From positions 5,084,001 to 5,148,000 of the forward strand of contig NC_079238.1 of the NCBI RefSeq assembly GCF_027921745.1: DNA of 64,000 nucleotides, read 5' to 3'. Below, piece after piece: positions 40,346-41,203 of the stretch. The number at the start of each line of letters is the position of its first letter. Positions within the stretch are counted from its first letter, which is position 1. The notes beneath the pieces are model-generated. The model worked only from the letters and a program-made list of their open reading frames with translations. It had not been told where the DNA came from and did no database searches. Source of the stretch: Schizosaccharomyces osmophilus (lineage: Eukaryota). Both the position numbers and the translations under genes were made by a program.

Positions 40346-41203
40346 ATGTCAAAGAATAATAATTTAAGCGATCCTCCTGCGTACAGCCATGTCAATGTTT
40401 ACAATGTTGATCTCGAGAAGGGACTTCCTTTGTACACACAACAGGACACAAATAAATCACCCAATTCAGGTTCTTTACAAACCAAAGAGAAGAAAGATAT
40501 AGCTATGGATCAACTTGGCGATTTTCATTTCTTTTTAGATGAAAGGAAACGTGAAGCTTCACAATTCCTAAATCGGGAATTTCCCGACAATGTAGTTGTT
40601 AAGGAGAAATCGCAACGATTGTTATCTACAATTATTCCCTCTTTGGTGTGTGTCTGTGCGATATCTTACTACTTCCGAACATATACTTTTCTAATCGATG
40701 GCTTTAAAGATTGGGGCAATTGGCCCTTGGGTCCTCTAATTATTCATGTCGTGGTATTCATAGTATTTGTAGCTGCTTTTTTTTGTGAGTTCAACCATTT
40801 CCAATTTCTCGATACATTTGATTGTTTACTAACAAAAATATTAGGCCTTCATTCATTTATTCTCGGAACTGTTAGAAGATTACTTTGTGTGGTCATCTTG
40901 ATGGGTTGTGTCCTTCCATTCCTTTTCAGTGCTATTGGAAACGTATACAGTGCTATTGGAAAAATCATTGGTATGGTCGTAGATATTTTGATGTACGGTT
41001 TAGGTACCATAATATGCGGTGTTGGCTATGGATTGTATTGCACTCTTTTAGCCTGTCTTGGTTTAAACTTTGTAAGCTCAACGGAGCACACGAGTTCGCC
41101 TACGCTTCCCAGCTATCAGCAAAGAGACAATGCACTTGCTCCTCCGCCGACGGATACGAATGAAGAAATAGAGTTGCAGAGCAATCCTAGTACTCAACTT
41201 TAG
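40346..41203 (+). CDS. Intronless multi-pass membrane protein with PY motifs, wtf-like, 285 aa
   Basis: ATG ORF; PPAY, VDLEKGLPLY, LPSY; several TM segments; 21-bp tandem repeat encoding SAIGNVY/SAIGKII; C-terminal NEEIELQ. Confidence 0.75.
   Translation: MSKNNNLSDPPAYSHVNVYNVDLEKGLPLYTQQDTNKSPNSGSLQTKEKKDIAMDQLGDFHFFLDERKREASQFLNREFPDNVVVKEKSQRLLSTIIPSLVCVCAISYYFRTYTFLIDGFKDWGNWPLGPLIIHVVVFIVFVAAFFCEFNHFQFLDTFDCLLTKILGLHSFILGTVRRLLCVVILMGCVLPFLFSAIGNVYSAIGKIIGMVVDILMYGLGTIICGVGYGLYCTLLACLGLNFVSSTEHTSSPTLPSYQQRDNALAPPPTDTNEEIELQSNPSTQL

What the first reader, a model, noticed from the sequence alone, without database searches (positions are those of the whole stretch)
40346..41203. Intronless wtf-like gene just outside the cassette: possible retrocopy, suppressor or new driver family
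This single 285-aa ORF combines several Wtf hallmarks: N-terminal PPAY and VDLEKGLPLY, a Met after the PY region (DIAMDQ), multiple TMs, a 21-bp-period repeat (40927-40962) encoding the heptads SAIGNVY-SAIGKII like Wtf IGN repeats, and a C-terminal NEEIELQ echoing NEGIELQ in the neighbouring wtf. It has no introns, whereas wtf genes depend on intron 1 for the poison promoter, and it has an extra C-terminal LPSY. It ends about 470 bp from a 5S gene and has a forkhead dyad upstream. It could be an antidote-only gene from a reverse-transcribed mRNA, or a distinct sporulation membrane family.
Basis: partly seen in the sequence, partly recalled or inferred. Interest (0 to 1): 0.78.

Follow-up and report, generated by a model that had tools for sequence, protein, structure and literature searches.

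The report
5S-riding DUF999 gene beside wtf driver
This is not an intron-less copy of the neighbouring wtf spore-killer gene but a member of the fission-yeast DUF999 family with one predicted intron; every relative checked in a sister species also sits beside a 5S rRNA gene, and the protein is likely a meiotic membrane protein sorted by ubiquitin tags like the Wtf antidote, with any selfish role untested.

Summary
The ORF and its motifs are real, but "intronless" is almost certainly wrong. A stop-free, in-frame 60-nt intron (40785-40844) hides in it, and the spliced 265-aa product equals S. osmophilus SOMG_02328. No RNA reads were seen.

It is a DUF999/UPF0494 member (30.8 bits, cut-off 25). 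It shows no DNA similarity to the neighbouring wtf, and the transmembrane cores do not align, so a retrocopy is rejected.

The context is more interesting. A 2022 source file labels 8 S. osmophilus wtf units with an undescribed "sag" gene, and this gene is one of them. In S. cryophilus, 10 of 10 paralogs checked (of 18 found) face a 5S-size rRNA gene 422-549 bp after the stop. The syntenic S. cryophilus locus has DUF999-5S-wag without wtf.

The family shares with Wtf a PY...DLE head, an NEEIELQ tail, variable 7/11-residue repeats and meiotic co-regulation in S. pombe. It lacks a conserved poison start.

Best reading: a PY-controlled meiotic membrane family spread by 5S recombination. A hidden driver role remains possible (about 0.17). 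The scan's earlier notes held nothing on this family.

The parts
40346..40784 (+). DUF999/'sag' gene (SOMG_02328) exon 1, 439 nt: cytosolic-type N-tail and first two hydrophobic segments
   Evidence: a 439-nt first exon is also in the Augustus model g3010
40785..40844 (+). 60-nt phase-1 intron, in frame and stop-free (GTGAGT...TACTAAC...TAG); predicted, not seen in reads
   Evidence: same intron in g3010; 11 of 11 S. cryophilus paralogs whose exon coordinates were seen have a phase-1 intron of 49-69 nt here
40845..41203 (+). exon 2: further hydrophobic helices, heptad repeat, LPSY, NEEIELQ
40373..40435 (+). PPAY...DLEKG-LPLY head (two PY motifs)
40505..40507 (+). Met54, possible internal start; not conserved in the family
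40927..40962 (+). 21-nt-period repeat (SAIGNVY/SAIGKII); copy number varies among paralogs
41105..41179 (+). C-tail LPSY and NEEIELQ
40052..40077 (.). forkhead/FLEX-like dyad, about 270-295 bp upstream of the ATG
41676..41794 (-). 5S rRNA gene, convergent with the DUF999 gene, 472 bp after its stop
42508..43637 (-). five-exon wtf gene (exons 43637-43523, 43327-43079, 43029-42787, 42748-42644, 42587-42508)
   Evidence: spliced product identical to P0024, named wtf meiotic driver
44671..45508 (+). wag gene, two exons, 55-nt phase-1 intron at 45167-45221
   Evidence: exon sizes match wag11
45839..45957 (-). second 5S rRNA gene, closing the unit
39014..39084 (-). tRNA gene upstream (anticodon GCC read by eye, Gly)

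Best explanation
The gene is a DUF999-family member with one predicted intron, lying tail-to-tail with a 5S rRNA gene, and it likely encodes a meiotically expressed multi-pass membrane protein whose PY motifs would recruit Pub1/Rsp5-type ubiquitin ligases and route it Golgi-to-endosome-to-vacuole, as shown for Wtf antidotes. Shown here: family membership, the convergent 5S neighbour in 10 of 10 S. cryophilus paralogs checked, and synteny of a DUF999-5S-wag arrangement with S. cryophilus. Inferred: copies spread and are homogenised by ectopic recombination at dispersed 5S genes, the route proposed for wtf, and this locus carried DUF999-5S before the two species split. Also inferred: the protein is a dispensable spore-membrane component with a single long isoform, a distant cousin or look-alike of Wtf and Wag in its tails only, and neither the antidote of the neighbouring wtf nor a driver itself.
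For: Family: DUF999 at 30.8 bits over the cut-off of 25. A profile search of 1.84 billion representatives gave 13 hits: 12 DUF999-family proteins, including S. pombe ones, and one fish repeat artefact; no Wtf or Wag.

Intron; phase 1 in 11 of 11 cryophilus paralogs; 'the only intron' in S. pombe DUF999.

5S link: 10 of 10; 8 'sag' units with wtf in S. osmophilus.

Synteny: def1 ortholog SPOG_01297 - SPOG_01296 - DUF999 SPOG_01295 - 5S - wag23. This gene nevertheless groups with osmophilus paralogs (100/100), not with SPOG_01295.

Expression: nine S. pombe DUF999 genes are de-repressed with 15 wtf genes in cuf2 mutants, and SPBC1348.01 is a middle-meiotic gene; five are in the Meu5-target table.

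Motifs: an N-terminal PPxY in 19 of 23 family proteins; PY-Pub1 mechanism in Wtf.

Dispensability: DUF999 is reported only in S. pombe, S. cryophilus and S. osmophilus.
Against: No RNA evidence for this gene was seen. Expression is borrowed from S. pombe paralogs of only 22-24% identity. PY function is inferred from motifs, which are common (5 further PY matches in the 19 other long ORFs of the window), and 4 of 23 family proteins lack the N-terminal PPxY. A harmless host role does not easily explain the rapid turnover, the repeat-number variation and the several short or truncated-looking osmophilus copies (90-200 aa). S. pombe phenotypes are thin: one deletion lowered outer forespore membrane breakdown to 29.8% and one strain did not sporulate, but the authors judged only cyc1 significant. 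Topology is unsettled (model pTM 0.36).
Confidence: 0.6

Rival explanations
1. DUF999/sag is an unrecognised poison-antidote or latent-toxin family, anciently related to wtf: the long PY-bearing form is kept harmless by ubiquitination, and a short form (for example from Met54) or a non-ubiquitinated form kills spores that lack the gene.
For: Same layout as Wtf: PY...DLE head (profile-profile probability 85% over 36 columns, score 45.6 against a maximum of 37.8 in 80 local shuffles), NEEIELQ tail encoded by different codons, and 7- and 11-residue repeats of variable number after the membrane core. Pfam WTF is hit weakly by 2 of 19 members (best E 0.0086), comparable to true non-pombe Wtfs (3 of 9, best E 0.0081). 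The only ESM Atlas hit shown is the WTF cluster (0.76, a lead only). Meiotic co-regulation with wtf, 5S riding, homogenisation. At least 18 proteins in S. cryophilus, where only 2 intact wtf remain, and none reported in S. octosporus, which has 83 wtf loci. A forkhead core lies at 40396, 109 nt before Met54.
Against: No intron 1 to hold a poison promoter. A Met near position 54-57 in only 5 of 14 cryophilus proteins, and none between residues 21 and 100 in 6 of 14. A C-terminal LPxY would remain on a short form. Membrane cores do not align with Wtf (0.5%). The head score rests on two short motifs; DLEK also occurs in an unrelated ATPase tail in the window. No drive phenotype in the literature searched.
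Confidence: 0.17
2. The gene is a linked helper or broad suppressor of Wtf poisons that travels with wtf-5S units.
For: 8 annotated units pair sag with wtf in S. osmophilus; PY motifs could confer antidote-like sorting; co-regulated with wtf in S. pombe.
Against: Even small repeat mismatches can break Wtf poison-antidote compatibility, and the cores here do not align. The family is largest in S. cryophilus, which has 5 wtf loci, and the syntenic locus there lacks wtf. Shared use of 5S sites explains the linkage.
Confidence: 0.08
3. A functionless or nearly neutral passenger family, amplified only because it lies next to recombinogenic repeats (5S here, subtelomeres in S. pombe).
For: Several short or truncated-looking copies; not reported in S. 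octosporus; S. pombe DUF999 genes act as recombination substrates and are lost in natural deletions.
Against: Tail motifs, intron position and membrane layout are kept between S. pombe and S. osmophilus, which split about 100 million years ago; many full-length copies in S. cryophilus.
Confidence: 0.14
4. Reverse-transcribed, antidote-only copy of a wtf mRNA.
For: The frame is open end to end and carries Wtf-like tail motifs.
Against: Has an intron; no DNA similarity to wtf; belongs to DUF999; syntenic counterpart in S. cryophilus.
Confidence: 0.01

Closest known systems
DUF999 / UPF0494 family (Pfam PF06198; S. pombe SPAC212.04c, SPBC1348.01, SPBPB2B2.07c)
   Same: Above the Pfam cut-off; single intron; PPxY...DLE-x-G head, hydrophobic core, variable repeats and an IELQ tail; multi-copy and recombination-prone.
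   Different: S. pombe copies are subtelomeric, whereas the S. cryophilus copies checked and this one face 5S genes; osmophilus and cryophilus members add a C-terminal LPxY; 22-24% identity to S. pombe members.
wtf poison-antidote meiotic drivers and antidote-only suppressors (De Carvalho 2022 PMC9562144; Zheng 2023 PMC10721834)
   Same: PY motifs in the N-tail, DLE motif, NEEIELQ tail, variable IGN-like repeats, 5S association, meiotic co-regulation in S. pombe.
   Different: Two exons rather than five; no intron-1 promoter or conserved exon-2 start; membrane core not alignable; convergent with 5S, whereas the wtf here is on the same strand as its 5S genes; no known toxicity.
wag (wtf-associated gene) family
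   Same: Two exons with a short phase-1 intron at a similar place, LPxY...DLEKG head, 5S/wtf neighbourhood; profile match over 101 columns through the first hydrophobic helix (probability 64%).
   Different: Other side of the 5S gene and other orientation; homology not established (core-only test not above shuffles).
'sag' label in Figure 1-source data 5 of De Carvalho 2022
   Same: Unit wag11_wtf20_g3010 matches this locus in exon and intron sizes, and g3010 has the same 858-nt span, 439-nt exon 1 and 60-nt intron.
   Different: The word does not occur in the main text; no link to DUF999 in the files searched and no sag label in the S. cryophilus file.

Membership tests
DUF999/UPF0494 | Pfam PF06198 score above the curated cut-off | tested here: met
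   30.7 and 30.8 bits against 25
DUF999/UPF0494 | Family profile retrieves S. pombe DUF999 proteins | tested here: met
   (P0036 at E 1e-14; P0040 clusters with SPAC212.04c)
DUF999/UPF0494 | Single intron after the second hydrophobic segment | tested here: met
   by annotation and splice signals, no reads
wtf | Five- or six-exon structure with a long intron 1 | tested here: not met
   two exons; the neighbouring wtf has five
wtf | Sequence homology across the membrane core | tested here: not met
   core-core probability 0.5%; no Wtf among the 13 profile hits; the Wtf profile used was shallow (9 sequences, no S. pombe Wtf)
wtf | PY motif in the N-terminal tail | tested here: met
   PPAY and LPLY
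wtf | Variable IGNxxxG-type heptad repeats near the C-terminus | tested here: inconclusive
   variable 7- and 11-residue repeats are present, with IGN in this gene, but they do not align significantly
wtf | Conserved alternative start giving a PY-less poison | tested here: inconclusive
   Met54 here and in 3 close paralogs; at that place in 5 of 14 cryophilus proteins; transcripts not seen
wtf | Spore killing or rescue | not testable with these tools
   needs crosses and expression assays
wtf | Shared fold | tested here: inconclusive
   models weak: pLDDT 61 for DUF999, 40 for Wtf
wag | Homology to Wag proteins | tested here: inconclusive
   only one Wag sequence available; 64% over 101 columns, above 80 of 80 shuffles, but core-only score below the 95th percentile of 1000 shuffles
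wag | Between the upstream 5S and wtf, divergent from wtf | tested here: not met
   lies beyond the downstream 5S; the wag position is filled by 44671-45508
retrocopy | Loss of introns and DNA similarity to a parent mRNA | tested here: not met

The most novel reading that the evidence does not exclude
DUF999/sag, Wag and Wtf descend from one PY...DLEKG membrane-protein ancestor, and DUF999 is a second, overlooked poison-antidote or latent-toxin family that colonises 5S rDNA sites. It fills them in S. cryophilus, where wtf has collapsed, and is gone from S. octosporus, where wtf has exploded.
Probability: 0.17. Interest if true: 0.85.

Novelty: new member of a known kind. Interest (0 to 1): 0.45.

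Why it matters
What appears not to be in print is that DUF999 is a further gene family riding dispersed 5S rDNA in S. cryophilus and S. osmophilus, with several evolutionary signatures of wtf drivers (searches; term checks). That turns a family of unknown function, with about ten copies in the model yeast S. pombe, into a concrete candidate that existing PY-mutation, DUB-tethering and tetrad assays can test quickly. A positive result would add a driver family and suggest a non-wtf relative for the origin of wtf. A negative result would still show that 5S-mediated spread is not specific to drivers.

Tried and rejected
- RNA check: no RNA holder listed, so there is no read evidence either way.
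- No whole genome was held, so copy numbers come from protein searches and published annotation files.
- Structure: the DUF999 model (pLDDT 61, pTM 0.36) gave no Foldseek match at E<=0.001 and only generic helical hairpins, best Z 7.6. The Wtf model was unusable (pLDDT 40).
- Wag/DUF999 intron coincidence: exact in one unguided alignment but shifted by a few codons in another, so it is not counted as evidence.
- A by-eye match between the DUF999 intron and wtf intron 3 (both phase 1, about one codon apart) was dropped, because the cores do not align and all four wtf introns are phase 1.
- The fish protein among the profile hits is treated as a repeat-summation artefact (9 short stretches).
- Regulated intron retention: 7 of 11 cryophilus introns are multiples of three, but the read-through annotations P0015 and P0016 end in a stop, so there is no support.
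- SPBC337.02c, which I recalled as DUF999, is a tdk gene.
- The scan's own notes had nothing by sequence or relatives, and the word DUF999 was in no finding.
- Tree rows left out: the short or partial proteins P0015-17, P0021-23, P0034, P0039, P0040, P0043, P0044 and the fish proteins.

Full report
OBSERVATION. The 21-nt-period repeat is a perfect 15-mer pair. A convergent 5S gene begins 472 bp after the stop. The forkhead dyad is there, with one site at 10 of 11 to the FLEX consensus, but the window has 18 such sites.

THE INTRON. The key claim fails. The best protein hit, S. osmophilus SOMG_02328 (265 aa), equals the ORF minus 20 residues. Those residues are a 60-nt phase-1 intron, 40785-40844, with canonical donor, branch and acceptor and low GC; removing it reproduces the database protein exactly. 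An independent Augustus model of the same locus has the same exon and intron sizes, though with probability only 0.5. All 11 S. cryophilus paralogs whose exon coordinates I saw have a phase-1 intron of 49-69 nt at this place. Two cryophilus annotations read into it and stop. No reads were seen.

WHAT IT IS. Pfam DUF999 is passed. Searches found 10 S. osmophilus and 18 S. cryophilus family proteins, plus S. pombe members; these are lower bounds from clustered databases. The family profile against 1.84 billion representatives gave 13 hits, none a Wtf or Wag. A 2026 preprint states that DUF999 occurs only in S. pombe, S. cryophilus and S. osmophilus, has one intron and no known function, is subtelomeric in S. 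pombe and mediates ectopic recombination. It does not mention wtf or 5S. In S. pombe, nine DUF999 genes are de-repressed together with 15 wtf genes in cuf2 mutants, and five appear in a table of Meu5 targets.

NEIGHBOURHOOD. The window reads def1-like gene, tRNA, DUF999 (+), 5S (-), five-exon wtf (-), wag (+), 5S (-) (the name def1 is recalled). The S. osmophilus annotation file of De Carvalho 2022 lists 6 'Wag_wtf_sag' and 2 'Wtf_sag' units in the part held. One matches this locus in exon and intron sizes and ends at this gene's ATG. In a second, the named gene ends in a DUF999 exon 2. The other six were not confirmed by sequence. 'sag' is not in the paper's text.

5S LINK IN S. CRYOPHILUS. 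I looked for a convergent rRNA gene after the stop of 10 of the 18 paralogs and found one in all 10, at 479, 477, 422, 486, 444, 463, 511, 545, 549 and 459 bp. Three were missed in the first 100-bp bin and found when I widened it. The file labels these 114-127-nt features '5.8S_rRNA'; the same label sits on features named 5SrDNA in the osmophilus file, so I read them as 5S. The paper counts 117 5S genes in S. cryophilus, only 4 of them beside wtf. Chance adjacency is therefore very unlikely (my inference).

SYNTENY AND TREE. The ortholog of the upstream gene is SPOG_01297. It is followed by SPOG_01296, the DUF999 gene SPOG_01295, a 5S gene and wag23, with 445 bp and no annotated wtf between 5S and wag. 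DUF999-5S at this site therefore likely predates the species split. Yet the tree puts this gene with osmophilus paralogs (100/100), not with SPOG_01295. That fits homogenisation or replacement by ectopic recombination; I ran no formal test of the topology.

RELATION TO WTF AND WAG. There is no DNA similarity to the wtf CDS or elsewhere in the window, and the shared NE-IELQ residues mostly use different codons. Profile-profile comparison finds only the PPxY...DLE head (53% with the narrow profile, 85% with the broad one) and the NEEIELQ tail. The membrane cores score 0.5%. The head score beats all 80 local shuffles, but it rests on two short motifs, and DLEK also occurs in an unrelated ATPase tail in this window. 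Weak support for kinship: Pfam WTF hits 2 of 19 members at E 0.009-0.02, similar to true non-pombe Wtfs (3 of 9); the Atlas's only listed neighbour is WTF at 0.76, within the chance range; and DUF999 proteins carry variable 7- and 11-residue repeats where Wtf has IGNxxxG heptads. Wag matches the broad profile over 101 columns (64%, above 80 of 80 shuffles) but fails a core-only test. Common ancestry is thus possible and not shown. The Wtf profile was shallow and lacked S. pombe sequences.

MECHANISM. Shown: gene structure by annotation and signals, family, motifs, 5S adjacency, synteny. From established work: PY motifs of Wtf antidotes bind Pub1/Pub3, and ubiquitination diverts the protein to endosome and vacuole and prevents toxicity. 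Inferred: the same sorting for this protein, middle-meiotic expression, and spread by 5S-mediated recombination, as proposed for wtf. Against a poison isoform: no intron 1, an unconserved internal Met, and a C-terminal LPxY. Against suppression: Wtf rescue is sensitive to small sequence mismatches. I commit to a dispensable, PY-controlled spore-membrane protein that rides 5S sites (0.6). Rivals are a cryptic driver (0.17), a neutral passenger (0.14), a suppressor (0.08) and a retrocopy (0.01).

PAPERS SEEN. PMC9562144: abstract, sections 5, 6 (first part) and 10, and passages; supplements 2, 3, 5 and 6 by search, each cut when stored; files 14-44 not searched, so they may say more on sag. PMC10721834: passages and section 12. 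Passages only: PMC11892871, PMC10085805, PMC3338643, PMC7712723, PMC3664816, and bioRxiv 2026.03.02.708787, 2026.01.24.701316, 2025.12.28.696746 and 309815. Preprint supplements and figures were not seen; the DUF999 tree and maps there, and the SOG web resource, may already show the 5S link. The 'not in print' claim rests in an open-access library only.

VERDICT. An annotated DUF999 gene misread as intronless. The useful outcome is a family-level observation, 5S riding plus wtf-like evolution, with a cheap decisive test. Interest 0.45.

Noticed in passing
window 44671-45508 (+): The Wag protein begins KNKY...FDG-LPRY-N...DDLEKG-PPY, echoing both the Wtf head (KNKY...FDG-PPPY-N...DLE) and the DUF999 head, and has a phase-1 intron after its main hydrophobic segment. 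Wag may be a DUF999 relative (not established).
   Followed up: partly
window 40819-40829 (-) and 40396-40402: A FLEX-like 10-of-11 match lies inside the intron, overlapping the branch region, and a forkhead core lies in exon 1, 109 nt before Met54. Both may be chance or by-products of the branch consensus.
   Followed up: no
window 43328-43522 (wtf intron 1): Intron 1 of the neighbouring wtf has only a 1-mismatch FLEX-like site with a broken core (GTCAACAAACA, 43386-43396); the paper reports no confident FLEX in any intact S. osmophilus wtf.
   Followed up: no
window 43943-44000: A forkhead core (GTAAACAAAGG at 43989) lies in the shared wtf-wag intergenic region.
   Followed up: no
window 55925-56043 (-): A third 5S gene with no sizeable ORF resembling wtf or DUF999 next to it in the ORF list.
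   Followed up: no
window 35618-50574 versus S. octosporus: Orthologs of the flanking genes are SOCG_04475, SOCG_04478 and SOCG_04479, and the proven driver wtf25 is SOCG_04480, so this region is likely a wtf/5S hotspot in that species too.
   Followed up: no
S. cryophilus cry_chrII 998021-998649 (SPOG_01296): An extra two-exon gene with a 56-nt phase-1 intron sits between def1 and DUF999 at the syntenic locus; no ORF of 60 aa or more is listed in the matching window interval.
   Followed up: no
family level: Counts run opposite: S. octosporus 83 wtf loci and no DUF999 reported; S. cryophilus 5 wtf loci and at least 18 DUF999 proteins; S. osmophilus 42 and at least 10. Too few species to test.
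   Followed up: partly
P0042 (SOMG_00738), P0037 (SOMG_01161), P0033 (SPOG_02382): Divergent long-branch DUF999 subtypes; SOMG_00738 lacks PY motifs and has a longer hydrophobic core.
   Followed up: no
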